Shown: positions 3,396 through 42,577, numbered from the stretch's first letter. The stretch: DNA of 64,000 nucleotides from Pseudomonadota bacterium (GCA_021827145.1 JAKAXK010000001.1:9006-73005); one strand, 5' to 3'. Translations and numbers: made by a program. Notes: generated by a model not told the origin, from the letters alone.

Positions 3396-3528
3396 TCGTG
3401 GCGGCGCCACCATCCCCTATGGACGCGATGTCGTGGCGGATCGGCCATGACGACACATCCCGTCAGGGAGGCCCGACCCCGACCCCGACCCCGGATCCGG
3501 CTGCCGTGCACCGGGAACAAGGGCACCC

Positions 3529-4428
3529 TTGATGGCCTACGGTGCCCCCCGCACGGTCCGCGACCACGTCCTGTATGTGGAGCGTCGGCTCAAGGCCGCG
3601 CATGTGGCCTTTGGACACGGGACCGAGGACGCCCGCGATGAAGCGGCTTGGCTCGTGTCCGGCGCCCTGAAGATCGCGCCGAACGGACTTACGGCGAAAC
3701 TCGCCGAGATCCCCAACCGCAAGACCGTGGCGCGCATCCGCAGCCTCCTGGCCGCGCGCATCCGGACCCGTCAGCCGCTCGCCTATCTGCTTGGCGAGGC
3801 CTGGTTCATGGGGCGCCGCTATATCGTCGACCCGCGCGTCATCGTGCCACGATCCCTGATCGGGGAATTCTTGCCCGAAGATGGGGCCTCGCCGCTCGCC
3901 GATCCCGATATCCGCTCCATCCTCGATCTCTGCACGGGCAGCGGGGCCATCGCGATCGCCGCGGCCCGCGCCTTCCCCGGGGCGCGAGTCGACGCAGTGG
4001 ATATCTCGGAAGACGCGCTCAAGGTCGCGGCGCGGAATATCCGTCTCCACGGCCTCGGCGGCCGGGTGCGACTCATTGCCTCGGACCTCTACAACGGCCT
4101 CAAGGGACGGCGTTACGACCTGATTTTGAGCAACCCGCCCTATGTCTCCGCGGCTGATATGGTATCCCTGCCGCGCGAATACCGCACGGAACCCACCCTG
4201 GCACTGGCGGCGGGCCCCGACGGGCTCGATCTGGTGTTGCCCATACTCCGGCAAGCGCCGGGGCATCTCACGGACGATGGGCGTCTGGCCGTCGAAGTCG
4301 GAGCCAGCCGCGAGGCGCTGGAGAAGCGCTTCCCTGACCGACCCTTTCTGTGGCTCGCCTCCGCCGACGACGAGTGTGTCGGCTATTGGCATAGAGAAGA
4401 TCTCGAGGACTTCGCGAACGACGGATAG
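3529..4428 (+). CDS. prmB: ribosomal protein L3 glutamine N5-methyltransferase
   Basis: It has 'GHGT.DA.DEAAWL', 'LDLCTGSGAIAI' and the 'SNPPY' catalytic motif, with PrmB-type length and layout. Confidence 0.85.
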   Translation: MMAYGAPRTVRDHVLYVERRLKAAHVAFGHGTEDARDEAAWLVSGALKIAPNGLTAKLAEIPNRKTVARIRSLLAARIRTRQPLAYLLGEAWFMGRRYIVDPRVIVPRSLIGEFLPEDGASPLADPDIRSILDLCTGSGAIAIAAARAFPGARVDAVDISEDALKVAARNIRLHGLGGRVRLIASDLYNGLKGRRYDLILSNPPYVSAADMVSLPREYRTEPTLALAAGPDGLDLVLPILRQAPGHLTDDGRLAVEVGASREALEKRFPDRPFLWLASADDECVGYWHREDLEDFANDG

Positions 4429-4446
4429 GGTGCCGCCGCGGACGGG

Positions 4447-4887
4447 TCAGCCGCCCTTGCAAGGGCCTGTGCGGACGCCCGTGATACGCTGATGTTCGGT
4501 GACGTTGCCCAAGGCGGTGGTGATGACCGCGCGGGTGCGGCCCGCAAAGCTGCGGCCCCCAGGCCCCAGGCGCAGGCGCGCCGAAACATGCACGCGGATT
4601 GCCCCCTGCCCCCCGGCCTGACTCAGGCGACAGACCTCAGTTACTGTGACCAAACTCCCCTGGACACTCACCGGGCCGTCCATACGGCAGTGGCTACCCT
4701 CGTTTTGCAGGATCTTCCGCGCCGTTATGTGGCCCCCCCGCAGACATGTGGAGTAATGCATGGGACCGCCCGGGGTGCGCGCCATCATGCGCCATTCACC
4801 GGCCACGATCTGCGGCGCCTGGGCCCAAGCCGCCACGGCCCACCCCAAGGCCCCGATTCCTAAGGCTATGCGTCCGATTTTCACCAT
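4447..4887 (-). CDS. small secreted protein (DUF3617-like)
   Basis: A signal peptide 'MVKIGRIALGIGALGWAVAAWA' is followed by 'GEW' and conserved Cys. The start was moved to the internal ATG. Confidence 0.45.
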   Translation of the reverse strand: MVKIGRIALGIGALGWAVAAWAQAPQIVAGEWRMMARTPGGPMHYSTCLRGGHITARKILQNEGSHCRMDGPVSVQGSLVTVTEVCRLSQAGGQGAIRVHVSARLRLGPGGRSFAGRTRAVITTALGNVTEHQRITGVRTGPCKGG

Positions 4888-4945
4888 ATCGTCGTTGCGC
4901 CGCTTTGAGGAGATAGGGAGATTAGGGGACCGGACGCGGCCGCTG

Positions 4946-6652
4946 TCAAGGGCGCGCAGCGGCCGGCGGTCCTCCGCCGTCGCTTCGGGCAGCGTAGAGC
5001 CCATCTATGGCCGCCTGGTAGCGCTCCTCTATCCATTGGCGCCGGACCTTTAGGGTGGGCGTCAGAAAGCCGTTTTCGATCGTCCAAGGGCCGTTGACGC
5101 GCAGCACATGGCGGATCCGGGTGTATCCCGGAAAGGCGTGGAGTTGCGCGTTGGCGCGATCACAGAGAAGCGTTTCATCCTCTATGTCGCTCACCGCCAA
5201 CAGCGCCAAGGCACCACGTCCCTCCCCCACTACCAACGCCTGTTCGAAGGCGTGGTCCTGAAGGATGGCCTGCTCGACATCGGCGGGCGCGACCTTTTCC
5301 CCGTTCGAGAGGACGATTATGTCCTTGGCCCGCCCGGTGAGATACAAGAGACCATTCTCGAGGCGCCCGAGGTCCCCGGTGTGGAGGAAACCCTCGGCAT
5401 CGATCACCTCGGCGGTAGCCTCGAGCTGATTCCAGTACCCTCGCATGATGCTCGCGCCCTTGACGCAAATCTCGTCGTCCAGAAAACGCAGGGTAAGGTT
5501 CGCAAGCGGCCGGCCCACGGAGGCCAAATCGCGATCGGCTAAGTGCAGGCAACTAATCACGGGCGCGGTCTCGGTAAGCCCGTATCCCTGCAGGAAACGC
5601 AGGCCCAAGCCCGTGAAGTAGGCGAGCAGCCGTGGTGACGCCGGGGCGCCCCCCAGGAACACGTAGCGCAGCCTTCCCCCCAGACGGCGCCGTACTGCGC
5701 GACCGACCACGGCATCATAGAGCCAGGCGGACAGCCGTTCGAGCCCGCGAGCCCGTCCCTCGAAGACCGCCAAGCCCGCCGCGGAGGCGCGCGCCACGAG
5801 CTGCTCCCGTCGCGGCGACCTCTTCATCTCCTCCTGCATCTTGGCGTAAGTCCGCTCGAAGATCTTAGGCACGCTCACGAGGATGGTCGGCCGCATACTC
5901 GCGAGATCCGCCGCCAGCTCGGTGATACCACGCGCGAACACGGTCTCGGCCCCCATGGCCACGGCCACGAATTCCCCGACAGTGCGCTCGAGCATGTGCG
6001 ACAAGGGCAGGAACGACAAAAAGCGGTGCGACTCCACGGCGATCTCGGGGATGGCCGCCAACAAGGCGCCGACATTGGCGAGTATATTCCGGTGAGTCAG
6101 CATCACCCCTTTGGGGCGGCCCGTGGTCCCCGAGGTGTAGACGATGGTCGCGAGATCATCCGGATCCGGGTCATGTACCGATGGACGCGCCTTACGACCG
6201 GCCGCCAACCACTCGCCGAAAGGGAGGACGCCACGCACTTCCTTGAAACTCACGATGCCCTGGAGTCCGCAGGCGAGGATTTCGGGGGCCGGCGCCCGAT
6301 CGACGAACAACCAGCGCACACCGGCATCTTTCAGACAATAGGCGATGTTCTCCGGTCGGTCATTAAAGAACAAGGGCACGACCGTAAGGCCCAAGGACAG
6401 CGCCGCAATGTCGCAGAACACCCACTCTGGAGCGTTGTAGGCGCAGATGCCCACGCGATCCCCGGGGGAAAGCCCGCTCGCCGCGAAGGCCGCGCGCACG
6501 CGCGCGACCTCACGCGCGGCCTCGCCCCAGCTCCAGGCGCGCCACCTTCGGCCATCATAACCGCGGTAGGCCGGCTCATCGGGGGTCGTGGCAATGCGGC
6601 GGGCGAACAGCTCGCCCAGCGTAGCCGGGGCATTCGGCATGGCATTCCTCAT
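4946..6652 (-). CDS. AMP-dependent acyl-CoA synthetase (long-chain fatty acid-CoA ligase type)
   Basis: The AMP-binding motif 'IVYTSGTTGRPKGV' is present, along with 'GYGLTE' and 'TGD'. The start ATG 6652 forms an ATGA overlap with the upstream stop. Confidence 0.85.
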   Translation of the reverse strand: MRNAMPNAPATLGELFARRIATTPDEPAYRGYDGRRWRAWSWGEAAREVARVRAAFAASGLSPGDRVGICAYNAPEWVFCDIAALSLGLTVVPLFFNDRPENIAYCLKDAGVRWLFVDRAPAPEILACGLQGIVSFKEVRGVLPFGEWLAAGRKARPSVHDPDPDDLATIVYTSGTTGRPKGVMLTHRNILANVGALLAAIPEIAVESHRFLSFLPLSHMLERTVGEFVAVAMGAETVFARGITELAADLASMRPTILVSVPKIFERTYAKMQEEMKRSPRREQLVARASAAGLAVFEGRARGLERLSAWLYDAVVGRAVRRRLGGRLRYVFLGGAPASPRLLAYFTGLGLRFLQGYGLTETAPVISCLHLADRDLASVGRPLANLTLRFLDDEICVKGASIMRGYWNQLEATAEVIDAEGFLHTGDLGRLENGLLYLTGRAKDIIVLSNGEKVAPADVEQAILQDHAFEQALVVGEGRGALALLAVSDIEDETLLCDRANAQLHAFPGYTRIRHVLRVNGPWTIENGFLTPTLKVRRQWIEERYQAAIDGLYAARSDGGGPPAAARP

Positions 6653-8673
6653 AGGTTCGTAGAGCGACGTGCGAGGAGGTCTCCTTGCGACCACGCCTCG
6701 TCGGGTGTGAAGCGCGGTCCATGGCGCTGGGTCAATTCCAAAAGCCGCGCGTGCACCTCGGCCACCCCCAGAGCGGCGGCATAGCCCAAGGGCCCACCGC
6801 GAAACGGCGCGAAGCCCGTGCCATAAACAAGGCCAATATCCACCATGTCGGCATCAGCCACGATGCCTAGGCGCAGACAGCGTGCCGCCTCGTTCACGAG
6901 CCGCATGATGAGCCGCTCGCCCAAGGCGGAGTCGGGGGCCGGTCGTCGCCGCAGCGAAAAACGCTGCGGGCGAGGGTAGCGATAGAAGCCCTGACCGGAC
7001 TTCTTTCCGAGGGCGCCGGCCTCGACCTTGCGCGCGAGCAACGCCGGGACCGGTATGTCGAGCGCCGCGCCCAGGGTCTGCGCCACGGCGAGACACACAT
7101 CGAGCCCAACGGTGTCGGCCAAGGCGATCGGCCCCATCGGCATGCCGAAATCGGTGGCCGCATCGTCGATATCCGTGAGCGCCACACCCTCCTCCGCAAG
7201 GGTGATGGCCTCGAGCAGATAAGGCATGAGGGCGCGGTTGACGAGAAAGCCGGGCGAGCTTTTGACGTCCACGGGCAAGCGATCGAGACCGACAGCGAGG
7301 CTGCGCATGGCGGCCAGCGTCGCGGGCGTGGTCGCGGTCCCGCCGATCACCTCGATCAGAGGCATCTTGGCCACGGGGTTGAAGAAATGCAGCCCGACGA
7401 GGCGTCCGGGGACAGCCAGCCCCACGGCGAGTTCGTCCAGGGGCAGACTGGAGGTGTTGGTGGCCATGATCGTGCGCTCCGCGACCTGCGCCTCGATCTG
7501 CGCAAAGAGCGCGCGTTTGGCATCGCGATCCTCGACGATGGCCTCTATGACGAGATCGGCCCGCGACAAGGCGCCGCCGCGCATGTCCGGCATCAGCCGG
7601 TCGCGCGCGGCCTCCGCGGCGCGGCCCTTCAGGCGCTCGGCGAAGAGTCCGTGGGCCTTCTTGATGGCGCGTGCGAGCACCTCCGGCGCGCGATCCTGGA
7701 GACTCACCTGGAAGCCTTTGAGGGCCGCCCACGCCGCAATGTCGGCACCCATCACGCCGGCGCCCACCACATGCACGCGCCGGATCCCGTGGACATGTTC
7801 CCGGGCGCGCCGCTTCAGGTCCTCCGACACTTCGAATAAATGCACGAGATGGCGGCTCGCAGGGGTCATGAGCATCTCGGCGCACGACAGGGCCTCGGTC
7901 TCGAAGGGGGCTTGGCGCGTCCATAAAGATACGATGCGGCAAGGGGCCGGATAGTGACGGCAGTCGACCTTTGCCTTGAGCCGCCGCTGCATGAACGCGC
8001 CCAGGTAAGGCCGCAGTAACGGCGTCCCGGCCCAGGCCTGGCGCCAGGGCGGGCGCGCCTTCGGCGGCACATCGCGCACGAACACGCGGGCGGCGGTGTC
8101 CAGGTGACGCGCGGGCACACAGGCGTCCACGAGCCCGAGGCTGCGGGCGCGGCGCCCCGACACGGCGCGCCCGCCGAGCATCAGGGACAGCGCCGGCAAG
8201 GCCCCGATCAAGGTCGGCAGCCGCACGGTCCCACCGAAACCCGGGTGGATGCCGAGCTTGACCTCGGGCAGGGCAAGACTCGTGTGCTCATCGTCGCAGG
8301 CGATACGGTAGCTGCAGGCGAGCGCCAGCTCGAGGCCGCCGCCAAGGCACGGTCCATGGATGACCGCCACCGACGGATAGGGAAGGCGGGACAAGCGCTC
8401 AAGCACCATCTGACCCGCGCGCGTGAGTTCAGCCGCGCGGGCGGCATCGAGAATACGACGAAATTCGTGGACGTCGGCGCCGACCACAAAACTCTCAGGC
8501 TTACCCGACCGGATGAGCAGCCCGCGTGCGGATCGCGTCTCGAGATCGGCAAGCACCTGATCGAGATCGCCCAAGACCTCGCTCGACAGCACATTGTGAC
8601 GTCGGCCCGGCACATCCAAGACGAGCTCGACGATGTCGTCCTGCTCCGAAATTGTCCAATTCTTGCCGGTCAT
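6649..8673 (-). CDS. bifunctional enoyl-CoA hydratase / 3-hydroxyacyl-CoA dehydrogenase (FadB/FadJ type)
   Basis: An N-terminal crotonase fold is followed by the NAD-binding 'VHVVGAGVMGADIA' and the HCDH C-terminal region. The start ATG 8673 forms an ATGA overlap with the thiolase stop. The ORF-track N-terminal extension was discarded. Confidence 0.85.
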   Translation of the reverse strand: MTGKNWTISEQDDIVELVLDVPGRRHNVLSSEVLGDLDQVLADLETRSARGLLIRSGKPESFVVGADVHEFRRILDAARAAELTRAGQMVLERLSRLPYPSVAVIHGPCLGGGLELALACSYRIACDDEHTSLALPEVKLGIHPGFGGTVRLPTLIGALPALSLMLGGRAVSGRRARSLGLVDACVPARHLDTAARVFVRDVPPKARPPWRQAWAGTPLLRPYLGAFMQRRLKAKVDCRHYPAPCRIVSLWTRQAPFETEALSCAEMLMTPASRHLVHLFEVSEDLKRRAREHVHGIRRVHVVGAGVMGADIAAWAALKGFQVSLQDRAPEVLARAIKKAHGLFAERLKGRAAEAARDRLMPDMRGGALSRADLVIEAIVEDRDAKRALFAQIEAQVAERTIMATNTSSLPLDELAVGLAVPGRLVGLHFFNPVAKMPLIEVIGGTATTPATLAAMRSLAVGLDRLPVDVKSSPGFLVNRALMPYLLEAITLAEEGVALTDIDDAATDFGMPMGPIALADTVGLDVCLAVAQTLGAALDIPVPALLARKVEAGALGKKSGQGFYRYPRPQRFSLRRRPAPDSALGERLIMRLVNEAARCLRLGIVADADMVDIGLVYGTGFAPFRGGPLGYAAALGVAEVHARLLELTQRHGPRFTPDEAWSQGDLLARRSTNL

Positions 8674-32171: not shown

Positions 32172-33278
32172 ATGACCAAACTTCTGACAGACGGTACCGC
32201 GCTCGCCGCCTTGAGCGCGGCGATCGCCGCGTCGCCCTGGACGGGCCTCGATACTGAGTTCGTCCGCGAACGCACCTATTACGCCAAACTCTGCCTGATC
32301 CAGACGGCGACGCCGGAGGGTATCACGCTCACCGATCCCTTGGGCCTTGATATCGGACCCCTGGGTCAAGCGCTCACGGGCCCCGGCATCAAGATCCTGC
32401 ACTCGGGCCGCCAAGACCTGGAGCTACTGCTGCAGGAAACCGGCGTCCTGCCCGCGCCGCTCTTCGACACGCAGATCGCGGCGGCGCTTGCGGGCCACGA
32501 CGAGCAGATCGGCTATGCCAACCTGGTGGCGAAGCTGCTCGAGGTGGAACTCGCCAAGGACGTGACCCGCACCAACTGGGCGGCACGACCCTTGAGTGAA
32601 CGGCAGCTCGCCTACGCGCAAGATGACGTGCGCTATCTCGATACTCTGCGCACCGCGCTCCTTGCGGAACTCGAACGGCTCGGGCGCGTGACGTGGCTCG
32701 TCGAGGACTGCGCGGCCCTGAACGATCCCGCGCTCTATCGCTTCTCGCCCGAGCAGTTGGTGCGTCGCTATCGCCAGGGGTCCGGGCTCTCCGCGCCCGG
32801 CCAGGCCGTCTTTCAGGCGCTGCTCCTCTGGCGCGAGGAGGCCGCGCGCAAGGCCGACCTGCCGCGCACCTGGATGCTCGCCGATGCGGTGCTCGTGGAC
32901 CTCGCGGCGCGCCCCCCGAAAACACGCGCCGACCTCGGACAGCGACGCGGGCTCGACGAACGACTGATCCAGCGCCTGGGCGATCAGCTGCTGGCCGTCA
33001 TCCACGACGCCCCCGAGCGGCCGACCCATCCGTGGCCCGCCGCCCGCCTACGGCCCGAGGAAGAAGACAGCTATCAGGCGCTCACTGCCCTCATCGACGC
33101 GCGCGCCCAGGCGCTTGGCATCCAGGCGGGGGTCATAGGGTCGCGCCGTACCCTAAAAGACATCGCGCAAGGGGCGCCCCCTGGCAACCTCGCCCAAGGC
33201 TGGCGCGCCGACGTCCTCGAGGTCGAGGGAGAACGGCTCATGACCGAGATCGCGGAGCGCCATGCCCACGCTTCGTGA
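32172..33278 (+). CDS. rnd: ribonuclease D
   Basis: The DEDD exonuclease motifs are 'LDTEF' and 'YAQDDVRYL'. An HRDC-like C-terminal region follows. Confidence 0.85.
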   Translation: MTKLLTDGTALAALSAAIAASPWTGLDTEFVRERTYYAKLCLIQTATPEGITLTDPLGLDIGPLGQALTGPGIKILHSGRQDLELLLQETGVLPAPLFDTQIAAALAGHDEQIGYANLVAKLLEVELAKDVTRTNWAARPLSERQLAYAQDDVRYLDTLRTALLAELERLGRVTWLVEDCAALNDPALYRFSPEQLVRRYRQGSGLSAPGQAVFQALLLWREEAARKADLPRTWMLADAVLVDLAARPPKTRADLGQRRGLDERLIQRLGDQLLAVIHDAPERPTHPWPAARLRPEEEDSYQALTALIDARAQALGIQAGVIGSRRTLKDIAQGAPPGNLAQGWRADVLEVEGERLMTEIAERHAHAS

Positions 33279-33882
33279 CGCGGCCTTTTTGATGGGCGCC
33301 CCGCGCGTGCGCGACCTGCCGCCCGACACGGGCGCCGAGGTGGCCTTCGGCGGCCGCTCGAACGCCGGCAAATCCAGCGCCCTGAACGCCCTGACCGGGC
33401 AGACGGGGCTGGCGCGCGTGAGCAAGACGCCTGGGCGCACGCAGCAACTGAACGTCTTTGCGGTCTCGCGCGATCATCGCCTCATCGACCTCCCGGGCTA
33501 TGGCTACGCCAAGGTGCCGCAGGCCCTACGCCACACCTTCCTCGCGCTCACGACCGCCTACCTTGCAGAGCGCCGGAGTCTGAAAGGTCTTGTACTCTTG
33601 GCCGACATCCGCCAGGGCCTGAAGACCGAAGACCATGCCCTGCTCCAAAGCCGTCTCGATATCCCGATCCTGGTGCTCCTCTCCAAGGCCGACAAGGTCA
33701 ATCGCAGCGAACGTCACCGCCTGCTGCGCGCAATGGCGCAAGTGGCCCCCGAGACCGCCTATCTGCTGCCGTTTTCGACCCTCTCGCGAGAAGGCCTGGA
33801 GGAAACCCAAGAGACCGTTTTGGGCTGGCTGGGCCTGGGGCCGGCGAGCACAACCGCCTCCCCCCCGTCCGCAAGCGACTGA
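33262..33882 (+). CDS. engB: ribosome biogenesis GTPase EngB/YihA
   Basis: The G1 motif is 'GRSNAGKSSALN'. 'KTPGRTQ' and 'DLPGYGYA' are also present. Confidence 0.9.
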   Translation: MPTLRDAAFLMGAPRVRDLPPDTGAEVAFGGRSNAGKSSALNALTGQTGLARVSKTPGRTQQLNVFAVSRDHRLIDLPGYGYAKVPQALRHTFLALTTAYLAERRSLKGLVLLADIRQGLKTEDHALLQSRLDIPILVLLSKADKVNRSERHRLLRAMAQVAPETAYLLPFSTLSREGLEETQETVLGWLGLGPASTTASPPSASD

Positions 33883-34076: not shown

Positions 34077-35222
34077 TCATTCTAATCCGGAAATCAGGGC
34101 GTTGAGGGCCTGCTGGCTCACTGGATTCGTCGTTCCGACGAAGGCCATGTTATGGTGGATACGGAAAGCGCCGACGGCGACTGGTGCGTACGGATCGCTG
34201 CAAAGCTCGATATCATAATTGCGCAGCTGATTCCCAAATTTCCCTAGCGCGATCCCGGTGATGGAAGTCGCACCTGCTTTCTTTAGGAAGGCGGCCGCCA
34301 CCCCAAACGAAACACCATACGTGGTGCAATCGTCAATGACGATGACGTGCTTTCCCGAAATACGGCCCCTGTAAAAAGGGTTGAGATGCAAGCTGACGAT
34401 TTGTCCCGTGGGGTCGGTGCGATCTACGCTGCCGCTACTGCGGGAGCGCTTAACGGACGGCGTATGCCGAATAAAGAGCGGTGTGTCACGTTGAGCATGG
34501 TGAACGCGAGATATCGTGGTCCTGAGACGATGAGTAAAATCGCAGAGCACGTCAGTATCGTCGTTGGCGCTATGTGACGACGGGTATACGCCCCATACTA
34601 AGTCCTTGATTTGGTCGGTGCCATCCATCAATAGCGACCGCGCAGTCACGGCCAGGAGCGCGTTCAAGCGGCTGCCACCATTCTTGACGGTCTTGGTTAG
34701 GCGGCTTGCGAATTGCTGCTGGGAGATGGACTTACCATACCCCGACAGGTCGGAGAGCGCGCGGATGTGGTAGTACGAGCCTTGAGCCGTAAACCACCAT
34801 TGCCCGGACCATTGGGAAGTCAAATTGAGGACCTCTCGCAACTCGGCCGCATCGTTGACCTTGATCCCCAGCCTAGTCACTTGAGGAGAATCGGACCAAC
34901 CCGCCGCGACAAGGAGGGCCCGGCCGTTCTTGCCCATTTGCACATCTTCAGGTTTGGACGCCAGCACCACGACATCGAAAGTGTTAATTTTCATCTGCTG
35001 AGCGTTGGTGACGACGATGTCGCCCGATTGGCGTCCGCGTGCCTGCAGAAACTGAACATCGGTGGCAGCGAATAAACCATCGAACCAGTCGGGTTTTCCG
35101 CCGTTTGATATCAGGCCGACCGGATATCCGGCGGCCCTTGTCGCCTTGAAAACATCCGCAATCAGCTGATCGGGCGCGCCCTGCTTGAGCATGGCATCCG
35201 GCGAAGTCATCAAAGCGAGCAT
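34077..35222 (-). CDS. degenerate HAD-like domain fused to a ComF-type phosphoribosyltransferase (island gene C)
   Basis: The C-terminal PRPP loop is 'HVIVIDDCTTYGVSF'. The N-terminal half aligns by eye to the HAD core of gene A, but no DxDxT nucleophile motif is present and motif IV reads 'ASKPED'. GC is low, and the gene starts 2 nt after the gene B stop. Confidence 0.7.
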   Translation of the reverse strand: MLALMTSPDAMLKQGAPDQLIADVFKATRAAGYPVGLISNGGKPDWFDGLFAATDVQFLQARGRQSGDIVVTNAQQMKINTFDVVVLASKPEDVQMGKNGRALLVAAGWSDSPQVTRLGIKVNDAAELREVLNLTSQWSGQWWFTAQGSYYHIRALSDLSGYGKSISQQQFASRLTKTVKNGGSRLNALLAVTARSLLMDGTDQIKDLVWGVYPSSHSANDDTDVLCDFTHRLRTTISRVHHAQRDTPLFIRHTPSVKRSRSSGSVDRTDPTGQIVSLHLNPFYRGRISGKHVIVIDDCTTYGVSFGVAAAFLKKAGATSITGIALGKFGNQLRNYDIELCSDPYAPVAVGAFRIHHNMAFVGTTNPVSQQALNALISGLE

Positions 35223-35224
35223 GG

Positions 35225-36916
35225 CTAACGCTGCTCCTCAAGTTGTTCCGCGGGCAACGAAAGGGAGTCGTTGAACCAGCGCACCAAGTCGTCGAAACTT
35301 TCATCCAGCCCTGGCAAATAAGGGCTAGGCGTGATGCTAGACAACTCGTTCCCCCCCGCCGTGGCTGCCACATGTTCCTGCAACAATGTCAAAAGCTCGT
35401 CGATCGTCTTCTTCCGGTGCGTCTCGGAATCTGCGTGAAACATGCTCATCTGGTTTTCGGGAGGGCGCTGAACCTGGTGCTGGCTCACGAACCAACTCCT
35501 GAAGGAAGGGTGCGCGGCGGAATGCGCTACGGACTTCATGTGCAGCAACGCCCCCTCCACCGAAAACACCAGGAACATGGTTTTCTCCTCAGCGGCACGG
35601 CTTTCCAGTCTCAGTTCCGCAATTTCCTCAAGCTTCTTCTGCAAGAACCGCATTCGGTACATGAGCCCAGTCGCCAGTTCCGAGCCGGTTTCGCCGTATG
35701 CGCTGCTCTTGAATTTCTCGATCGTAGAGAGCGCATCGGTCACGCTCGGTACCGGGCGATCACGCCACTTTATAGGCAGCTCGCCGGTACCCTCTTCTAA
35801 AGGTTTATCCGCTACCTTTGCCACATGGTAGTTCGCCAATTCCTCATGCTTCGTATCCGTTTGCGAGTTGGGGGTTTCGGACCATTCATCGCTCGGTGCG
35901 TTTATCGGGTCAGGAGCGGGTGCCGCCACAGCGGCGGCCGGACCGCGCCCAAACCCGACGGCGGCATGGGCAAAGGGGTCATCAAGCAAGCGCCGGTAGT
36001 CTTCGCGGCTACGCAGTACCACAATGCGATCGAGATCCGCCTCCGAGCAACGCAGCAGTTCTGCCTTGGATTGCGGAGGCCCCTCAGCGACAAGCAAGTT
36101 GGCTTGCACCTTCGGCTCATTGTTCGCACGATCCCGATCGGTGGGATACGGAACTGCCAGCCAGCGGCCATACTGCAATGCGCTGCGCGATGCATGCAGG
36201 CTGCCGCCCTTTAGATCGGACTGGACCATGACGACGCCGTCCGCCAAACCCGCCTGGGTCCGATCGCGTTTAACGAACTGTTGAGCCTGAGCGCTCTGCC
36301 CAAAGCAATACTCGCTCACCAGTGCGCCGCCGGCCTCCAGTATCTGTTCAGCTAGTTTTTTGTGTTTGCTTGGGGCAATGGTTTGGAGGCCATGCGCCAA
36401 CACCGCCACGGTATGCCCCCCGCACTCGAGCGCAGCTTGGTGCGCGATGGCATCGCAGCCAAGCGCCAAGCCACTCACGATGCTCGATCCGCTTTCGGCG
36501 AAGAATTGCGAAATTCTGTGAGCTATCTTGATACCGTGCTCAGTAGGTTCCCGCGTGCCGATAATCGCGACCGCGTGCATTGACTCCGGTGCGAGGGCGC
36601 CTTTCACGTATAGAATGAACGGATCGTCGTTTGTTGCAGTCAAGCGAAGCGGATATTCCGGGTCTGCGGCCGAAATAATGCGGGCTTGGTGGTTTTCCGC
36701 AGCCTCAATCTGTTGCTCCGCCTTTTTACTGGCCACCTGCCACGCGTTGTCCGGTTCGAGCGCCCGTGCTATCTGCGTGATTCTCTGTGCCAGCGCCTCG
36801 GGTTCCTCATCCACAAAACCAGGTATTGCTGCCACTTTCTTAAGCGAAGCCGGGCCCACGCCCTTCAACATCGAAAGCGTCAGTACGAATAGGGTAGCGG
36901 GAGAAACAACGTTCAT
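35225..36916 (-). CDS. DprA/Smf-like (SLOG superfamily) protein with an unrecognised ~250 aa C-terminal extension (island gene B)
   Basis: DprA Rossmann-domain motifs are 'SGLALGCDAIAHQAAL', 'TVAVLAHGL', 'FVKRDRTQAGLADGVVMVQS' and 'GGSLHAS'. I could not assign the C-terminal half (about 35225-36000) to any family. Confidence 0.75.
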   Translation of the reverse strand: MNVVSPATLFVLTLSMLKGVGPASLKKVAAIPGFVDEEPEALAQRITQIARALEPDNAWQVASKKAEQQIEAAENHQARIISAADPEYPLRLTATNDDPFILYVKGALAPESMHAVAIIGTREPTEHGIKIAHRISQFFAESGSSIVSGLALGCDAIAHQAALECGGHTVAVLAHGLQTIAPSKHKKLAEQILEAGGALVSEYCFGQSAQAQQFVKRDRTQAGLADGVVMVQSDLKGGSLHASRSALQYGRWLAVPYPTDRDRANNEPKVQANLLVAEGPPQSKAELLRCSEADLDRIVVLRSREDYRRLLDDPFAHAAVGFGRGPAAAVAAPAPDPINAPSDEWSETPNSQTDTKHEELANYHVAKVADKPLEEGTGELPIKWRDRPVPSVTDALSTIEKFKSSAYGETGSELATGLMYRMRFLQKKLEEIAELRLESRAAEEKTMFLVFSVEGALLHMKSVAHSAAHPSFRSWFVSQHQVQRPPENQMSMFHADSETHRKKTIDELLTLLQEHVAATAGGNELSSITPSPYLPGLDESFDDLVRWFNDSLSLPAEQLEEQR

Positions 36917-36918
36917 TT

Positions 36919-38178
36919 CTACGACCTCGGCAACACGTCACTTACGTTTTTTGCAAACGCCAAGCATCTCACGTCAGCGGCACCCTCCTCCTTTAGGTAT
37001 TGGGCGGCATATATCAGGGACGCTCCCGTCGTCACCACGTCGTCGATAACGACGTAAATAACTTTGGGATCAACAGCGCTAGGCTGTGGGAGATATAAAT
37101 GGTCACATACGTTGAGAAATCGATCATGAGCACTCAAGTGCTCCCCGTGATGGGATTTTACGCCCTCCTTGTAGGCTAGCAAACCAGGTGCGGTCGAGGC
37201 ATCGACGTCCTTGACGGGCTTCGCTTCAAAACCGCCATTCAACTGCCCCAATAGACGCTCAAGCCGTGGCGTCCTGTCCGGTCTGTGCGGAACCGCAGTA
37301 ATAACGACCTCAAGCCTCCTGCGGGACAAAGGGCGGGCCACAACGTCTTCAACGAAACGCCGCACCGCCAACAACCACTCGTTCGGAAAGACGTTGGCTT
37401 CCTTGTGTTCGGCAATGGATTTGCTGAGCTTATGCCATTTTCTGCGATGCTCCAAAGAATCGTAGTTGGCAAACGAACGTCCACAGGCATAGATGGGATA
37501 TGACGTCTTGTCGCCACCGGCTACCTTGGGAATAAAATGACCGATCTTGTCGAAACGATGCCTAGTGCTGAGGGGCTTATCGCCGGTCTCGATCAGACGT
37601 TCCAGCTCTGGCAAGAACCTTTCATGGGAACTTAGAACCTCGATGATTAGTTCCGGATTTTCGATGGTCACGTCGGGCATCCGCATAATGGCGTGCCAAT
37701 GTTCAGGCTTCCATTTGGTGGGCCAGTTACTTTTGTCGAGCGCGGCCAAGCAACCGCAATGGTAGGCTGCCCGAATATCGGCATCGTTGTCTCCGACGAG
37801 AATGACTTCTTCGACATCTTTCACGCCAAGGCGGTTCATCGCGTATGCGATACCATCACCATAAGGCTTCGTACGCTTAACATCACCGTATGCCACCAAG
37901 ACATCCCATTTAAATTTAGGATAAGCCCACGCAAGCACGGTTTCAGCATAAGGCCTGGGTGAACGCGTAAATACACCCAGCATGAGGCCGGGAAACCGTG
38001 TTTTGATCTTATCCAACAACTCTCGCGAGTAGATGACTCGGTCCGTATTCGAATCCAATGCCTTCGTGAGGCTCGCGAGCAAGGCGCTATCGGGATTCTT
38101 GCTCGATATACGCAGATCCTCTACGTCATCGGTTGAAACCAGCGTGTTGTCTAGATCGAACATACACAGGCGAAACAT
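36919..38178 (-). CDS. HAD-superfamily phosphatase fused to a ComF-type phosphoribosyltransferase (island gene A)
   Basis: HAD motif I is 'FDLDNTL', II is 'GVFTRSP', III is 'KRTKPYGDG' and IV is 'LVGDNDAD'. The C-terminal PRPP loop is 'VIYVVIDDVVTTGASL'. A GGGGGAG RBS precedes ATG 38178. Confidence 0.75.
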   Translation of the reverse strand: MFRLCMFDLDNTLVSTDDVEDLRISSKNPDSALLASLTKALDSNTDRVIYSRELLDKIKTRFPGLMLGVFTRSPRPYAETVLAWAYPKFKWDVLVAYGDVKRTKPYGDGIAYAMNRLGVKDVEEVILVGDNDADIRAAYHCGCLAALDKSNWPTKWKPEHWHAIMRMPDVTIENPELIIEVLSSHERFLPELERLIETGDKPLSTRHRFDKIGHFIPKVAGGDKTSYPIYACGRSFANYDSLEHRRKWHKLSKSIAEHKEANVFPNEWLLAVRRFVEDVVARPLSRRRLEVVITAVPHRPDRTPRLERLLGQLNGGFEAKPVKDVDASTAPGLLAYKEGVKSHHGEHLSAHDRFLNVCDHLYLPQPSAVDPKVIYVVIDDVVTTGASLIYAAQYLKEEGAADVRCLAFAKNVSDVLPRS

Positions 38179-39022
38179 TCTCGCTCCCCCTTTCGTTGCC
38201 CAAGCTAACTGATAGGTTTTTGTTCTTCAGATCCAGATATTTCATACCTCGTCATTGCGAGTACCGTGAGTTACTACGTGAACGAATGCTGCTGAACTTG
38301 GGCTACACGATAGACGCTAAAATCATGCGGCGCCAAGTTTAGGTCGATAGTACCTCAATTGCTATCTCTCTTAGGCTTCAATCATAAGGAATATTGGCTG
38401 GAGAAATCGGTCACTGGTGTGAAGCCGACCAAGGGCCGAGGGGGTCGAAGAACTTTCGGCCGAAGCAACGTCGGCGGCCGTATATTCCTGACGGAGAGCA
38501 GCCGGCGACCACTCAGATTGGATGCCGTACGTTTCCAACTCGATCGTGTATATATCTTATCTTTCGAAACCGCGGTAAGTCCGGTCTGTGCCGTAATCCA
38601 TCCAATTATTGCGCCCTATTTCGGCGAATGCTTGCGGGTCGTGGTCACGTCTTTTTTCAGATGAGTCGATGGAACTGACCGCTGGTCTTGGTCCGGAGGC
38701 CCGTGTAATGCAACAGGGTCGCCGTCGAGCGATGCACCCGTGGACCCGCGTGTTTATCCAAGAGCGCGTCGTAATCCGCGACCATTTTGGACGCGGACTT
38801 GCCGAGCAGGCGTGTACGCGCCCTGGCCCGCCTTAGCGCCACCCCGGCCAATCGCAGCGGCAACTGGTCTGCATCCCACAAGCCTCGTGACGCGCAGGAT
38901 CGGGTATTGGGGTCCGCTCTTGGCCGCGTTTCGTGACTCACGGGCGCGCGGCTTTCGTCTTTTGAACACACACAGCCGACGCGGCTTTACGAGCGCGCTC
39001 GTGTACGTATATCATGGGGCAT

Positions 39023-39057
39023 AAAAAAACCCCGGGCGCAAGGGAGAGGGCCCGGGG
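39023..39057 (-). terminator. rho-independent terminator downstream of polA
   Basis: On the minus strand the stem CCCCGGGC (39050-39057) pairs with GCCCGGGG (39030-39037) around a 12-nt loop, followed by a T7 run (39029-39023). Confidence 0.6.
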
Positions 39058-39165
39058 ATAAACGAGACCCTGGGCCTAGCGGCCCAGGTTACCCACTCAG
39101 GGAGGAGAAGCGGGTAAAGGACTTATCGTCCTATCCCAGTAGACTACGGGCCCCGGAAAAAGTTC

Positions 39166-41826
39166 CTAGTGGGCCTCGTCCCAGTTTTTGCCCACCCCGC
39201 ATTCGGCGATCAGCGGCACCGAAAGGGTCGCGGCCTGCTCCATCCGCACCACCACGGCCTCCTTCACGACCGGAATCTCCGCCTCCGGGACCTCAAACAC
39301 GAGTTCGTCGTGAACCTGCATGATCATGCGGGTGGCAAGCCCCTCCTCCGTCAAATAGGCGTCCACGGCCAACATGGCTCTCTTGATGAGGTCGGCGGCG
39401 GTGCCCTGCAGCGGGGCGTTGATGGCCGTGCGTTCGGCGTATTGGCGCCGGCCCGCGTGGCTCGCCTTGATGTCCGGGACATAAAGCCTGCGCCCGAAGA
39501 GGGTCTCGACGTAACCCTGGCTACGGGCGAGGCCGCGCATATCCTCCATGTAGCGGTGGACCCCCGGATAGCGCTGGAAATAGAGGTCGACGTACTTCTG
39601 GGCATGCCCCTGGTCAATGCGTAGCTGGCGGGCGAGTCCGAACGCCGACATCCCGTACATGAGCCCGAAATTGATGGCCTTGGCGGCGCGGCGCTGGTCG
39701 TCGGAGACCACGTCCAGGGCCACCCCGAAGACCTCGGCGGCGGTGGCCCGATGGACGTCCCGCCCCTCCTTGAAGGCGCGCACGAGACCGGCATCCCCTG
39801 ACAAGTGGGCCATGAGACGTAGCTCGATCTGGGAATAATCCGCCGACAAGATGCGCAGTCCCGGCCCCGCGACGAAGGCCTGACGGATGCGGCGGCCCTC
39901 CTCGGTACGCACCGGGATGTTCTGCAGATTGGGATCGCTCGAGGACAGCCGGCCCGTGGCGGCCACGGCCTGGTGATAGGTCGTATGGATGCGTCCGGTA
40001 CGCGGGTCCACCATGGAGGGAAGCTTGTCGGTATAGGTACTTTTCAGCTTGCCAACCGCACGGTAGTCGAGGATGAGCTGCGGCAAGGGATAGTCCAGGG
40101 CCAGCTCCGCAAGCACGTCCTCGGCCGTCGACGGTTGGCCTTTTGGTGTGCGCTTCTTGATCGGAAGCTTCTGTTCTGTAAAGAGAATTTCTTGAATCTG
40201 GGAGGGTGAATTGAGGTTGAAGGCGTGTCCCGCCAGACCATGCGCTTGGTTCTCGAGGGTCGCGAGCTTCACGCCGAGCTCGGCGCTCTGACGCTCGAGC
40301 ATGGCGGTGTCGATGGGAACGCCCGCCTCCTCGATACGCGCCAGCACCGGACTCAAGGGGCATTCCAGGGTTTCGTAGATGCGCGCAAGCCCGGGCTCGG
40401 CGCGCAGCCGATCCGAGAGCTCCGCGCGCAGGGAAAGGAGCGCGAAGACCGTGTCGCCTGCCACCGCCACCCACTCGTCCTCGGGGATCGCGCTGAACGG
40501 GCGCCGTGCGCGCCCCTCGCCCCTCATCGCCTCCCGCGTTGTGATCGGACGGCCCAGATACTTTAAAGCCAGGGTGCCGAGCGCGTGACTGGCGGCGCCA
40601 CTATCGAGAACGTAGGAGGCCAACATGACGTCATCCCATGCGCCACCCAAAGACAAGCCCTCGGCCATCAAGAAGCGAAGTAGACGCTTGCTGTCATGAA
40701 GAACGAGTGGCGGCGCCCCTTTGTCGAAGAGTGGGCGCAAGGCCGTGAGGATCCCGGCCGATCCGGGCCCATCGAGCAGGTCGCGGGGCACCGGTAGCAG
40801 CGAAGCCCCGCGCTCCGTACCCACGACGATCGCCGTGATCAGGCCCTCCTCATCCCAGACGTCCAAGGCGATCCGCGGCGCATCGCGCCAGGAAGCGACC
40901 GCCGCGCGCAGACCCTCGGGGTCCGTGACCACAACGGCTGGGGGGCGGGCCCCCGCGCCGGCATCGCCGAGCTCGGACAGCCAGTTCTTGAACTCGAGCT
41001 CGGTGTACAAGCGCCGCAGGGTGTCCTGATCGGGGGATCGGGGCACGAGGTCGGAGAGCGCAAGGGGTAAGGTCACATCGCAGCGGATGGTGACGAGCTC
41101 ACGGGCGAGCCGCAACTGGGCCTCACCGTCACGCAGAGCCTCCCCGAGCCGACCCGGTATGTCATGCGCGTGGGCTATGATCTCGTCGAGCGAACCGTAG
41201 GTCTCGAGCCAGCGAGCGGCGGTCTTGGGCCCAGCGCCAGTGACACCCGGCACGTTATCGACCTTGTCACCCACGATGGCGAGATAATCCACGATACGTT
41301 CAGGGGCCACCCCGAAGCGGGCGATCACACCTTCGCGATCCAAGGTCTGGTCGGTCATGGTATTGATGAGGGTCACGTCCGGGGTCACGAGCTGGGCCAT
41401 GTCCTTGTCGCCCGTGGAGATCACAACCCGCAAGCCCTGCTCGCGCCCGAGGCGGGCCAGCGTGCCTATGACGTCGTCCGCCTCGACCCCGGACACGGCG
41501 AGCAGCGGTACGCCGAGCGCCTGGATCAGGGCGTGCAGCCTCGGGATTTGCACCGCGAGATCGTCAGGCATGGCCGCGCGCGTGGCCTTGTAGTCCGCAT
41601 AGAGCGTGTCACGGAACGTGCCGCCGGGGGCATCGAAGACCATGGCCACCAAATTCGGCTTGTAATCGGCGCGCAATTTCCGCAGCATGTTGGCCACGCC
41701 GTATACAGCGCCGGTCGGTTCGCCGCGCGTGTTTCGCAAGTCCGGCATGGCATGAAACGCGCGGTACAGATACGATGAGCCGTCTACCAACAGCAAGAGT
41801 TGCCCAGGATCCCCGGTCGGTATCAT
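39166..41826 (-). CDS. polA: DNA polymerase I
   Basis: The 5'-nuclease N-terminus is 'LLLVDGSSYLYRAFHA'. Pol A motifs are 'DYSQIELR' and 'QVHDELVFE'. Confidence 0.95.
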   Translation of the reverse strand: MIPTGDPGQLLLLVDGSSYLYRAFHAMPDLRNTRGEPTGAVYGVANMLRKLRADYKPNLVAMVFDAPGGTFRDTLYADYKATRAAMPDDLAVQIPRLHALIQALGVPLLAVSGVEADDVIGTLARLGREQGLRVVISTGDKDMAQLVTPDVTLINTMTDQTLDREGVIARFGVAPERIVDYLAIVGDKVDNVPGVTGAGPKTAARWLETYGSLDEIIAHAHDIPGRLGEALRDGEAQLRLARELVTIRCDVTLPLALSDLVPRSPDQDTLRRLYTELEFKNWLSELGDAGAGARPPAVVVTDPEGLRAAVASWRDAPRIALDVWDEEGLITAIVVGTERGASLLPVPRDLLDGPGSAGILTALRPLFDKGAPPLVLHDSKRLLRFLMAEGLSLGGAWDDVMLASYVLDSGAASHALGTLALKYLGRPITTREAMRGEGRARRPFSAIPEDEWVAVAGDTVFALLSLRAELSDRLRAEPGLARIYETLECPLSPVLARIEEAGVPIDTAMLERQSAELGVKLATLENQAHGLAGHAFNLNSPSQIQEILFTEQKLPIKKRTPKGQPSTAEDVLAELALDYPLPQLILDYRAVGKLKSTYTDKLPSMVDPRTGRIHTTYHQAVAATGRLSSSDPNLQNIPVRTEEGRRIRQAFVAGPGLRILSADYSQIELRLMAHLSGDAGLVRAFKEGRDVHRATAAEVFGVALDVVSDDQRRAAKAINFGLMYGMSAFGLARQLRIDQGHAQKYVDLYFQRYPGVHRYMEDMRGLARSQGYVETLFGRRLYVPDIKASHAGRRQYAERTAINAPLQGTAADLIKRAMLAVDAYLTEEGLATRMIMQVHDELVFEVPEAEIPVVKEAVVVRMEQAATLSVPLIAECGVGKNWDEAH

Positions 41827-41872
41827 GACTGCCCCAAAATCTCAAAAACCCCTGATCAAAAGAAAGTCGGCG

Positions 41873-42577
41873 GCCATGCAACCCGGCACCGCATCCCCGG
41901 AGGGCGCCCTCTCGCGGGAGGCCTGGAAGATCTTCCAGATCATGGCGGAGTTCGTCGAAGGCTTCGAGGCCTTAGCCCAAATCCGGCCGTCGGTGAGCAT
42001 CTTCGGTTCGGCTCGCATCGCCCCAGACCACCCCTATTTCACACTCGCCGAGGATATCGCGCGCAAACTATCGGATGCGGGCTTCAGCGTCGTGAGCGGC
42101 GGCGGCCCCGGCATCATGGAAGCCGCCAACAAGGGCGCGTATGCCGGCCCCTCGCCCAGCGTCGGCCTGAACATCCGCCTCCCGCACGAGCAGGCGGGCA
42201 ACGCCTACCAGGACATCCGTCTGACCTTTCAGCACTTCTTCGTGCGCAAGGTCATGTTCGTCAAGTATGCCACAGCCTATGTCGTGATGCCCGGCGGCTT
42301 CGGCACGCTGGATGAGCTCATGGAGATCATGACGTTGATCCAGACCGGCAAGAGCCGGCGCATCCCGATCATTCTCGTGCATACGCCCTTTTGGTCGGGC
42401 CTCACGGAGTGGTTCCGCACGGTCTTGATCCGCGACGGCGTGATCAGCGCCAGCGACATGGATCTGTTTGTGACGCTCGATAAACCCGAGGACGTCATAG
42501 ACGCCATCTTCCGTTACTACGAACTGAGCGGCTTCGAGCCCTCCGAAGAGGAAAAGGAGATCCAGCTTAACCTCTGA
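41873..42577 (+). CDS. LOG-family (TIGR00730) nucleotide phosphoribohydrolase
   Basis: 'VSGGGPGIMEAANKGA' and 'PGGFGTLDELMEI' are LOG signatures. The start is uncertain; the ORF-track start overlaps the polA start. Confidence 0.8.
   Translation, partial: AMQPGTASPEGALSREAWKIFQIMAEFVEGFEALAQIRPSVSIFGSARIAPDHPYFTLAEDIARKLSDAGFSVVSGGGPGIMEAANKGAYAGPSPSVGLNIRLPHEQAGNAYQDIRLTFQHFFVRKVMFVKYATAYVVMPGGFGTLDELMEIMTLIQTGKSRRIPIILVHTPFWSGLTEWFRTVLIRDGVISASDMDLFVTLDKPEDVIDAIFRYYELSGFEPSEEEKEIQLNL

What the first reader, a model, noticed from the sequence alone, without database searches (positions are those of the whole stretch)
34077..38178. Low-GC three-gene operon (HAD-PRTase / DprA-like / pseudo-HAD-PRTase): candidate undescribed nucleotide- or ssDNA-centred defence system
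Three co-directional genes are separated by only 2 nt each (36917-36918 and 35223-35224). They sit in a ~4.2 kb block between the conserved genes engB and polA. Its GC is about 50% where I counted (37501-37560 gives 30/60), while the flanks are well above 65%. Gene A combines an apparently intact HAD phosphatase (FDLDNTL, GVFTRSP, KRTKPYGDG, LVGDNDAD) with a ComF-type PRTase (VIYVVIDDVVTTGASL). Gene B has a complete DprA/Smf Rossmann domain plus an unassignable C-terminal half. Gene C is a paralog of A with a decayed HAD part. Three points come from established knowledge. DprA belongs to the SLOG superfamily, which is frequent in nucleotide-signalling conflict systems. ComFC (PRTase fold) and DprA cooperate on incoming ssDNA in natural transformation. 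As far as I recall, a two-gene DprA + PRTase pair was reported as an anti-phage system from P2/P4 hotspots. I do not know of any description of the HAD fusions or of the catalytic/pseudo-catalytic PRTase pair. My inference is that the DprA-like module senses ssDNA or a nucleotide. The PRTase and phosphatase would then either convert base to NMP to nucleoside, making a toxic or signalling nucleoside, or run nucleotide depletion.
Basis: partly seen in the sequence, partly recalled or inferred. Interest (0 to 1): 0.9.

Follow-up and report, generated by a model that had tools for sequence, protein, structure and literature searches.

The report
Three-gene Shosta (ShosTA) phage-defence operon
This low-GC island is a member of the already described Shosta (ShosTA) toxin-antitoxin anti-phage system, in an undescribed three-gene form where one DprA-like antitoxin gene is flanked by two different phosphoribosyltransferase toxin-like genes.

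Summary
Three co-directional minus-strand ORFs (419, 563 and 381 aa) are separated by 2 nt each. They form the lowest-GC block of the window (55.9% against 64.7%), between engB and polA.

The "undescribed system" reading does not hold. Gene B is ShosA (PADLOC 2.6e-94, ssDNA-binding arginines conserved). Gene C is ShosT (PADLOC 6.7e-47; its AF2 model matches the ShosT crystal structure at TM 0.70). B→C is the canonical ShosA→ShosT order seen in an E. coli P2-like phage. The hydrolase-PRTase fusion was already published for ShosT (Pu 2025), and the nucleophile-less N-terminal domain is a ShosT family trait, not decay.

What is new is gene A. It is a distant ShosT-like protein with all HAD catalytic residues intact. 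Its family always sits upstream of a co-evolving ShosA clade, in at least 12 two-gene lineages. C-type ShosT always sits downstream of a ShosA.

The window's operon is the union of both layouts around one shared antitoxin. It recurs in at least 5 lineages of alpha- and beta-proteobacteria. Function is inferred by homology and nothing was tested experimentally. Verdict: a known system in a new variant, of moderate interest.

The parts
36919..38178 (-). Gene A (419 aa): a distant ShosT-like protein with a catalytically intact C1-capped HAD domain (about residues 1-150) and a ShosT-type PRTase domain. Proposed first toxin/effector.
   Evidence: Pfam HAD_2 47 bits and Pribosyltran 26.7 bits. Family-invariant residues are D8, D10, T71, K104, D130, D134 and D379-D380-x-x-T383-x-G385. 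AF2 model has pLDDT 92 and pTM 0.90. The best PDB fold hit is ShosT 8zvc, E 3e-10, about 450 aligned columns. hhalign against E. coli ShosT gives 86% probability over 317 columns. It keeps the ShosT PRPP-site residues Y239, H298 and K341. PADLOC ShosT scores only 33.7 bits.
35981..36916 (-). Gene B, residues 1-312: the ShosA core (SAM-like N-terminus plus DprA Rossmann domain). Antitoxin that binds ssDNA and RecA.
   Evidence: PADLOC ShosA PDLC03961 2.6e-94 over residues 2-341. Pfam DNA_processg_A 3.6e-57. PDB ShosA 8zva/9vzo 1e-26. The ssDNA-binding arginines R122, R217 and R244 correspond to E. coli R139, R234 and R261.
35225..35980 (-). Gene B, residues 313-563: a low-complexity linker plus a helical C-terminal extension. 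It evolves fast and is essentially an orphan. Possibly a stability or regulatory tail, by analogy with the unstable C-terminus of E. coli ShosA.
   Evidence: No family hit. Only 3 representatives match in 1.84 billion proteins. Identity is 40-42% in L007/L008, marginal in Alcaligenes and Rhizobium, and the region is absent in P. syringae (324 aa). The instability of the ShosA C-terminus is from Pu 2025.
34077..35222 (-). Gene C (381 aa): canonical-type ShosT toxin, with a nucleophile-less HAD-like N-terminal domain and a PRTase domain.
   Evidence: PADLOC ShosT 6.7e-47. PDB ShosT 8e-9 with the single sequence and 4e-13 with the family profile. hhalign against E. coli ShosT gives 97.3% probability over 290 columns. 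The AF2 model (pLDDT 85) matches ShosT 8zvc at TM 0.70, E 2e-19. Conserved residues S39/N40, R64/Q65, D93, K258, Q274 and D297/D298 align with ShosT functional residues.
38179..38370 (-). 5' leader and probable promoter region of the operon, with a GGGGGAG ribosome-binding site 7 nt before the gene A ATG.
   Evidence: 76% identical over 193 nt to the region upstream of the gene A ortholog in L006. A TATACT/GGTACT -10-like box and a CTATCAG motif are shared with L007/L008. The simple promoter scan found no consensus sigma-70 site here.
38371..39020 (.). Remainder of the inserted block. No convincing ORF or RNA family was found, and its function is unknown.
   Evidence: Only short ORFs without family hits. 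No Rfam match. GC rises from 0.50 (38179-38660) to 0.62 (38661-39165) toward the native sequence.

Best explanation
The block is a horizontally acquired Shosta (ShosTA)-family toxin-antitoxin anti-phage operon in a compound three-gene form, T1-A-T2.

Gene B is the ShosA antitoxin, a DprA-like protein that binds ssDNA and RecA. Gene C is a canonical ShosT toxin. Gene A is a second, distantly related ShosT-like enzyme whose HAD domain still has its full catalytic apparatus.

Proposed mechanism, by homology with the E. coli system:
1. The PRTase domains bind PRPP and transfer phosphoribosyl to an unidentified base.
2. The N-terminal domain removes PPi. For gene A's intact HAD it might instead remove the product's phosphate.
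3. Nucleotide metabolism is disturbed, replication is damaged, and the infected cell dies or arrests.
4. In uninfected cells ShosA counteracts this indirectly, through ssDNA/RecA-dependent repair and without binding the toxin.
5. Phage infection removes that protection, either by host shut-off and decay of unstable ShosA or by competition from phage ssDNA.

Because neutralisation is indirect, one ShosA could buffer two different toxins. That would allow a T→A module (A-type) and an A→T module (C-type) to merge around a single shared antitoxin gene.

Shown here: family membership, fold, conserved residues, gene order, and recurrence of the arrangement.
Inferred: toxicity of A and C, cross-neutralisation by B, and anti-phage activity in this host.
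For: Identification of B and C:
- PADLOC hits ShosA 2.6e-94 and ShosT 6.7e-47.
- PDB sequence hits to ShosA and ShosT.
- The gene C model superimposes on ShosT at TM 0.70.
- The ShosA ssDNA-binding arginines are conserved, as are the ShosT PRPP-loop DD and other site residues.
- Canonical order ShosA→ShosT in E. coli phage 10W matches B→C.

Gene A as ShosT-like:
- Its top structural hit is ShosT, across both domains.
- hhalign gives 86% probability over 317 columns.
- The ShosT-specific residues Y196, H240 and K280 are retained.
- A-type genes occur alone with a ShosA in at least 12 lineages, always in A→DprA order, where A is the only toxin candidate. Examples are Klebsiella, B. dolosa, P. 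syringae and prophage contigs.
- A and B identities co-vary (r = 0.82).

Three-gene form:
- It is conserved in beta-proteobacterial MAGs, Alcaligenes, a Rhizobium megaplasmid and a metagenome fragment.

Context of homologs:
- They sit in defence islands or mobile elements. Neighbours include Lamassu/Kiwa, Shedu/Gabija-like genes, pAgo, integrases, relaxases and prophage genes.

Mechanistic literature: PMC11961720 and PMC12961424.
Against: - No experiment was done on this locus or on any A-type protein.
- Gene A scores poorly on the PADLOC ShosT model (31-51 bits, PRTase part only). TM to ShosT is only 0.32, which I attribute to a different predicted domain orientation, though I did not compare the domains separately.
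- The E. coli ShosA dimer-interface residues L181/F182 are not conserved in gene B.
- The window's island has no neighbouring defence genes, integrase, tRNA or flanking repeats.
- No empty-site relative could be found.
- The physiological substrate of ShosT is itself unknown (Pu 2025 discussion).
- The two published trigger models differ.
Confidence: 0.8

Rival explanations
1. Gene A is not a toxin. It is an accessory enzyme of a B-C ShosTA pair. Its active HAD phosphatase would process or detoxify the nucleotide made by ShosT (C), or amplify the effect by converting NMP to nucleoside.
For: A's HAD site is fully intact, while that of canonical ShosT is not. In E. coli the N-terminal domain contributes only marginally to toxicity, so an active HAD may serve another purpose. 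A scores weakly on ShosT models.
Against: A-type genes occur with ShosA but without any C-type gene in at least 12 lineages, so A cannot depend on C. A's PRPP-loop DD and the ShosT-like PRPP-site residues are invariant. B co-evolves with A, not with C.
Confidence: 0.12
2. The three genes are a juxtaposition of an A-B ShosTA-like pair and an orphan or decaying C-type toxin gene that lost its own antitoxin. There would be no functional integration.
For: The A-B and B-C layouts each exist independently. C genes from three-gene loci are not monophyletic in an NJ tree, which suggests repeated shuffling. L006 may carry a truncated C.
Against: An unneutralised toxin gene would be lethal or quickly inactivated. 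Yet C is intact and 64-71% identical across three-gene loci in alpha- and beta-proteobacteria. All its catalytic residues are invariant, and it sits 2 nt after B in the same operon.
Confidence: 0.06
3. It is a housekeeping competence or DNA-uptake module (ComF-type PRTase plus DprA).
For: ComFC and DprA cooperate in natural transformation (established knowledge). There are weak hits to TIGR00201 comF and GntX.
Against: comF scores 31.5 bits against a cutoff of 233. dprA TIGR00732 scores 182, below its cutoff of 191. The composition is foreign. Homologs sit in prophages, integrative conjugative elements and defence islands. The best matches are the ShosA and ShosT models and structures.
Confidence: 0.02

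Closest known systems
Shosta / ShosTA (E. coli APEC O1; the 'DprA-PRTase' system of P2-like prophage hotspots). Sources: Kimelman 2012, Rousset 2022, Millman 2022, Pu 2025, Yang 2026.
   Same: A DprA-like ShosA is followed by a two-domain ShosT (HAD-like N-terminal domain plus noncanonical PRTase). The gene order matches B→C. The ssDNA-binding arginines and the PRPP-loop DD are conserved, and the location is a mobile or defence context.
   Different: Sequence identity is only about 25% to E. coli ShosT. The window's ShosA carries a 250-aa orphan C-terminal extension. A third, upstream gene encodes a ShosT-like protein with an intact HAD active site, whereas the literature describes a strictly two-gene system.
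PsyrTA / RqlHI
   Same: A DprA-like antitoxin paired with a PRTase-containing toxin. The PADLOC PsyrA model hits gene B at 4.7e-30.
   Different: PsyrT is a 689-position model (a longer toxin, reported elsewhere as RecQ-like, which I recall rather than tested). Genes A and C match only its last 40-60 positions (E 4e-4 to 2e-3), and they have no helicase domain.
PRTase effectors of type III retrons and Ophion OpnC
   Same: These are defence-associated PRTases, reported to fall in the same clade as the ShosT and PsyrT PRTases (bioRxiv 10.1101/2025.09.30.679545).
   Different: The window has no reverse transcriptase, ncRNA, radical-SAM or PHP partner. The partner here is a DprA-like protein.
ComFC-DprA of natural transformation
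   Same: A PRTase-fold protein and DprA both act on ssDNA and RecA.
   Different: Model scores fall far below the family cutoffs. ComF has no HAD-like domain, and the genomic context here is that of a mobile defence island.

Membership tests
Shosta / ShosTA defence system | ShosA: a DprA-like protein (SAM-like N-terminus plus Rossmann DprA domain) matching ShosA models | tested here: met
   PADLOC PDLC03961 2.6e-94 over residues 2-341. PDB ShosA 8zva/9vzo 1e-26.
Shosta / ShosTA defence system | ShosA ssDNA-binding arginines (E. coli R139, R234, R261), required for antitoxin activity | tested here: met
   They map to R122, R217 and R244 in gene B and are conserved in all 11 partner DprA proteins compared.
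Shosta / ShosTA defence system | ShosA hydrophobic dimer interface (E. coli L181/F182) | tested here: inconclusive
   The aligned residues are E164/C165 in gene B. The interface may differ, and no structure of B was modelled.
Shosta / ShosTA defence system | ShosT: a two-domain toxin, with a HAD-like N-terminal domain lacking the Asp nucleophile and a noncanonical PRTase with an essential DD in the PRPP loop | tested here: met
   For gene C: PADLOC 6.7e-47, hhalign 97.3% probability, Foldseek TM 0.70 to 8zvc, and residues S39/N40, R64/Q65, K258, Q274 and D297/D298.
Shosta / ShosTA defence system | Adjacent co-directional shosA→shosT genes | tested here: met
   B→C with a 2-nt spacer. The same order occurs in E. 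coli phage 10W.
Shosta / ShosTA defence system | Two-gene composition as described in the literature | tested here: not met
   A third gene (A) is translationally close-coupled upstream, and this is conserved in at least 5 lineages. The core pair is still complete, so this marks a variant rather than an exclusion.
Shosta / ShosTA defence system | ShosT is toxic, ShosA neutralises it without binding, and the system protects against phage | not testable with these tools
   Requires expression and phage-challenge experiments.
ShosT family (for gene A) | Full-length homology to ShosT across both domains | tested here: inconclusive
   The top Foldseek hit is ShosT (E 3e-10, about 450 columns) but TM is 0.32. 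hhalign gives 86% probability over 317 columns. PADLOC ShosT scores only 33.7 bits over the PRTase part. phmmer finds no ShosT hit.
HAD superfamily phosphatase (gene A N-terminal domain) | Four catalytic motifs: DxDxT, S/T, K, and (G)DxxxD | tested here: met
   D8, D10, T12, T71, K104, D130 and D134 are invariant in 26 family members. HAD_2 scores 47.4 bits against a cutoff of 23.8.
PsyrTA / RqlHI | Long toxin carrying an N-terminal helicase-like region in addition to the PRTase (the PADLOC PsyrT model has 689 positions) | tested here: not met
   Only the last 40-60 model positions match genes A and C. Neither has a helicase domain.
ComF/DprA competence proteins | Scores above the NCBIfam equivalog cutoffs for comF and dprA | tested here: not met
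   comF scores 31.5 against 233.55, and dprA scores 182 against 191.15.

The most novel reading that the evidence does not exclude
A-type proteins (intact HAD plus ShosT-like PRTase) with their co-evolving ShosA clade form an unrecognised Shosta subtype with distinct chemistry. One possibility is PRPP-dependent synthesis of a nucleotide that the active HAD dephosphorylates to a toxic or signalling nucleoside. The A-B-C operon would then be a true two-toxin, one-antitoxin system. That is possible only because ShosA neutralises indirectly, so it would be a natural test of the type IV mechanism.
Probability: 0.35. Interest if true: 0.55.

Novelty: new variant of a known kind. Interest (0 to 1): 0.38.

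Why it matters
The core of the locus adds nothing conceptually new. It would be called Shosta by existing defence-finder models.

The value lies in three points:
1. There is a widespread family of ShosT-like proteins with an intact HAD site. It holds at least 232 clusters at 90% identity and occurs in Klebsiella, Burkholderia, Pseudomonas, Alcaligenes and prophages. Current ShosT models barely detect it, so Shosta-like systems are probably under-counted.
2. The contrast between an intact and a nucleophile-less N-terminal domain in two toxins of one operon gives a natural handle on what that domain does. The ShosT substrate and the role of its weak pyrophosphatase activity are still open questions.
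3. One antitoxin shared by two dissimilar toxins is a direct prediction of the indirect, repair-based neutralisation model, and it can be tested.

Tried and rejected
- Scan of metagenome contigs with the gene A alignment: the patterns (PRPP loop, DxD) were too generic. Of the 52 loci, I checked only the top-scoring one (L014), which holds an A-B-C fragment; the rest matched only the PRPP-loop region at low identity and I set them aside without inspection.
- Plasmid collection: only one record, a Rhizobium megaplasmid, carries A-type and C-type genes, and it carries both.
- Empty-site test: the only contigs encoding the identical EngB carry the same island, so insertion could not be shown directly.
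- No tRNA, integrase, or flanking direct or inverted repeats mark the island ends.
- The promoter scan found nothing above shuffled expectation.
- Gene B's C-terminal half has no family hit, only 3 homologs, and no match to the separate 212-227 aa ORF found between DprA and ShosT in ICE-borne loci.
- Kimelman 2012 (PMC3317161) is not held in the library.
- Rejected ideas: a competence operon (scores below cutoffs), PsyrTA (no helicase part), and "C is a decayed copy of A" (profiles share only 40 columns; C is constrained and ShosT-like).

Full report
OBSERVATION. Three minus-strand ORFs exist exactly where stated: gene A 36919-38178 (419 aa), gene B 35225-36916 (563 aa) and gene C 34077-35222 (381 aa). 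Both junctions are stop + 2 nt + ATG. EngB (33262-33882, +) and PolA (39166-41826, -) flank them. The operon is 55.9% GC, with GC3 of 0.60-0.66. The window is 64.7% GC, and flanking genes have GC3 of 0.80-0.82. This is the lowest-GC 4.1 kb block of the window. "About 50%" is true only locally. All quoted motifs are present. Pfam confirms HAD_2 and Pribosyltran in A and DNA_processg_A in B.

IDENTIFICATION. PADLOC models identify gene B as ShosA (2.6e-94) and gene C as ShosT (6.7e-47). Against the PDB, gene C hits the ShosT crystal structures: 8e-9 as a single sequence and 4e-13 with the family profile. Gene B hits ShosA and DprA at 1e-26. An AF2 model of gene C (pLDDT 85) superimposes on ShosT 8zvc over its full length, with TM 0.70 and E 2e-19. 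In the E. coli P2-like phage 10W the order is Smf/ShosA followed by ShosT (424 aa). That is the same order as B followed by C.

The literature describes ShosTA as a two-gene type IV toxin-antitoxin defence system.
- ShosT has an N-terminal HAD-like hydrolase/pyrophosphatase domain (residues 1-164) and a PRTase domain (165-424). D331/D332 are essential. It perturbs purine metabolism and replication.
- ShosA is a DprA-like dimer that binds ssDNA and RecA and neutralises ShosT without binding it. Its C-terminus makes it unstable.
- T7 Gp0.7 shut-off or phage ssDNA are the proposed triggers.

So the HAD-PRTase fusion is already described, and the B+C core is a known system.

THE "PSEUDO-HAD". E. 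coli ShosT itself lacks the DxD nucleophile: it reads VIFSIADVV where gene A reads MFDLDNTL. Gene C shares ShosT's substitute residues. S39/N40 align with T52/N53, R64/Q65 with K92/Q93, and D93 with D121. Gene C also shares the PRPP-site residues K258, Q274 and D297/D298. All are invariant in 25 family members at 58-85% identity. The domain is therefore constrained and typical of ShosT. It is not decaying.

GENE A. Its family has at least 232 clusters, is about 415 aa long, and members are about 50% identical to gene A. It keeps every HAD catalytic residue (D8, D10, T71, K104, D130, D134) and the PRPP loop (D379, D380, T383, G385) invariant. The profiles of families A and C align only over the 40-column PRPP loop, so they are not close paralogs. 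Even so, three results tie A to ShosT:
- The confident AF2 model of A (pLDDT 92) has ShosT as its best PDB match, spanning both domains (E 3e-10, about 450 columns). TM is only 0.32, which I attribute to a different predicted domain orientation, though I did not compare the domains separately.
- hhalign of profile A against E. coli ShosT gives 86% probability over 317 columns.
- A retains the ShosT PRPP-site residues Y196, H240 and K280 as Y239, H298 and K341.

At the positions where ShosT has S9, A11 and R117, A has D8, D10 and D130. Gene A is thus a distant ShosT-like enzyme with an active-looking HAD site. PADLOC's broad ShosT model scores A-type proteins at only 31-51 bits, against 169-180 bits for C-type and E. 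coli ShosT.

COMPARATIVE GENOMICS. Three layouts occur.
1. A→DprA only. Found in B. dolosa, P. syringae, K. pneumoniae (between Lamassu-like and Kiwa genes), two further chromosomal lineages, and seven prophage or viral-contig lineages. A identity runs from 52% down to 25%.
2. DprA→C only. Found in a Pseudomonas prophage, five viral contigs, and integrative conjugative element (ICE)-borne loci next to pAgo or ubiquitin-like systems.
3. A→B→C. Found in the window, two beta-proteobacterial MAGs, Alcaligenes aquatilis, a Rhizobium beringeri megaplasmid (beside Shedu and Gabija-like genes), and a metagenome fragment. In addition, 17 contig lengths are shared between the top-120 hit lists for A and C.

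Wherever the DprA domain is at least 36% identical to gene B, an A-type gene lies upstream. The DprA partners of C-only loci are 30-35% identical to gene B. Their C genes are nevertheless as close to the window's C (59-64%) as those of three-gene loci (64-71%). A and B identities correlate (r = 0.82). C genes from three-gene loci are not monophyletic in an NJ tree, which had no bootstrap.

A-type modules always run toxin→antitoxin, and C-type modules always run antitoxin→toxin. The three-gene operon is therefore exactly the union of both around one shared ShosA of the A-linked clade.

MECHANISM. Family membership, folds, conserved residues and the recurrent architecture are shown here. The following is inferred by homology:
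- Both PRTase proteins are PRPP-dependent toxins.
- ShosA (with ssDNA-binding arginines R122, R217 and R244) buffers them indirectly through ssDNA and RecA.
- Infection lifts that protection.

Indirect neutralisation would explain how one antitoxin can serve two dissimilar toxins.

Gene B's C-terminal 250 residues are an orphan, fast-evolving extension. By analogy with the unstable tail of E. coli ShosA it may tune stability. That is speculative.

RIVALS. Gene A as a mere accessory enzyme is contradicted by the many A-B loci that lack C. Chance juxtaposition with an orphan toxin is contradicted by tight coupling and by conservation of an intact C across classes. A competence module is excluded by sub-cutoff scores and by context.

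LIMITS. No experiments were done. No empty-site comparison was possible. The census is small and not random. The NJ tree is unsupported by bootstrap. The genome and metagenome scans were largely unproductive.

VERDICT. This is a real feature and a member of the known Shosta/ShosTA family. It is a new three-gene variant that exposes a poorly recognised ShosT-like family with an intact HAD site. Interest is moderate.

Noticed in passing
window 39021-39116 (-): Rfam RF02837 anti-hemB sRNA (Burkholderia RNA 7) scores 56.8 bits against a gathering score of 49.5, E 1e-11. It lies immediately downstream of polA and includes a strong terminator. It marks the native upper boundary of the island and hints at a Burkholderiales-like host.
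   Followed up: partly
L009 8297-9130; L010 8225-9331; L093 7157-7930: A Trypsin_2 serine-protease gene sits immediately beside C-type ShosT in three unrelated loci: a Rhizobium plasmid, a Pseudomonas prophage and a metagenomic ICE. It may be a further accessory component. It is absent from the window.
   Followed up: no
L093, L095-L098 (about 3200-7140 in each): ICE-borne C-type loci share a four-gene layout: HTH + Peptidase_M78 regulator, a short DprA (294-302 aa), an unknown 212-227 aa protein, then ShosT (379 aa). Neighbours are Multi_ubiq/ThiF ubiquitin-like genes or pAgo + DpnII. The 212-227 aa protein shows no similarity to gene B's C-terminal half.
   Followed up: partly
L080-L084 (viral contigs), about 4000-5500: A DprA-like gene is followed by a protein matching only the HAD part of gene A (residues 1-184, about 29% identity). 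This may be a split or PRTase-less relative of the system.
   Followed up: no
window 35252-35265 and 38188-38201: A perfect 14-nt inverted repeat (GGGCAACGAAAGGG / CCCTTTCGTTGCCC). One arm lies in the gene A leader next to the ribosome-binding site, and the other near the 3' end of gene B. It could be chance or a long-range mRNA pairing.
   Followed up: no
window 38371-39020: About 650 nt between the conserved gene A leader and the polA-proximal sRNA has no credible ORF, no protein-family hit for its longest ORF (104 aa), and no Rfam match. It may be a remnant of the element that delivered the island.
   Followed up: partly
L006 3453-4244: In the closest relative contig (A 76% and B 79% identical), the C gene matches only over its first 62 codons. 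This may be a truncation or an assembly break, so the third gene can be lost.
   Followed up: no
window 41825-42577 (+): A LOG / Lysine_decarbox (SLOG-superfamily) gene lies next to polA with native GC3 (0.83). It belongs to the same superfamily as DprA but appears to be a housekeeping gene unrelated to the island.
   Followed up: no
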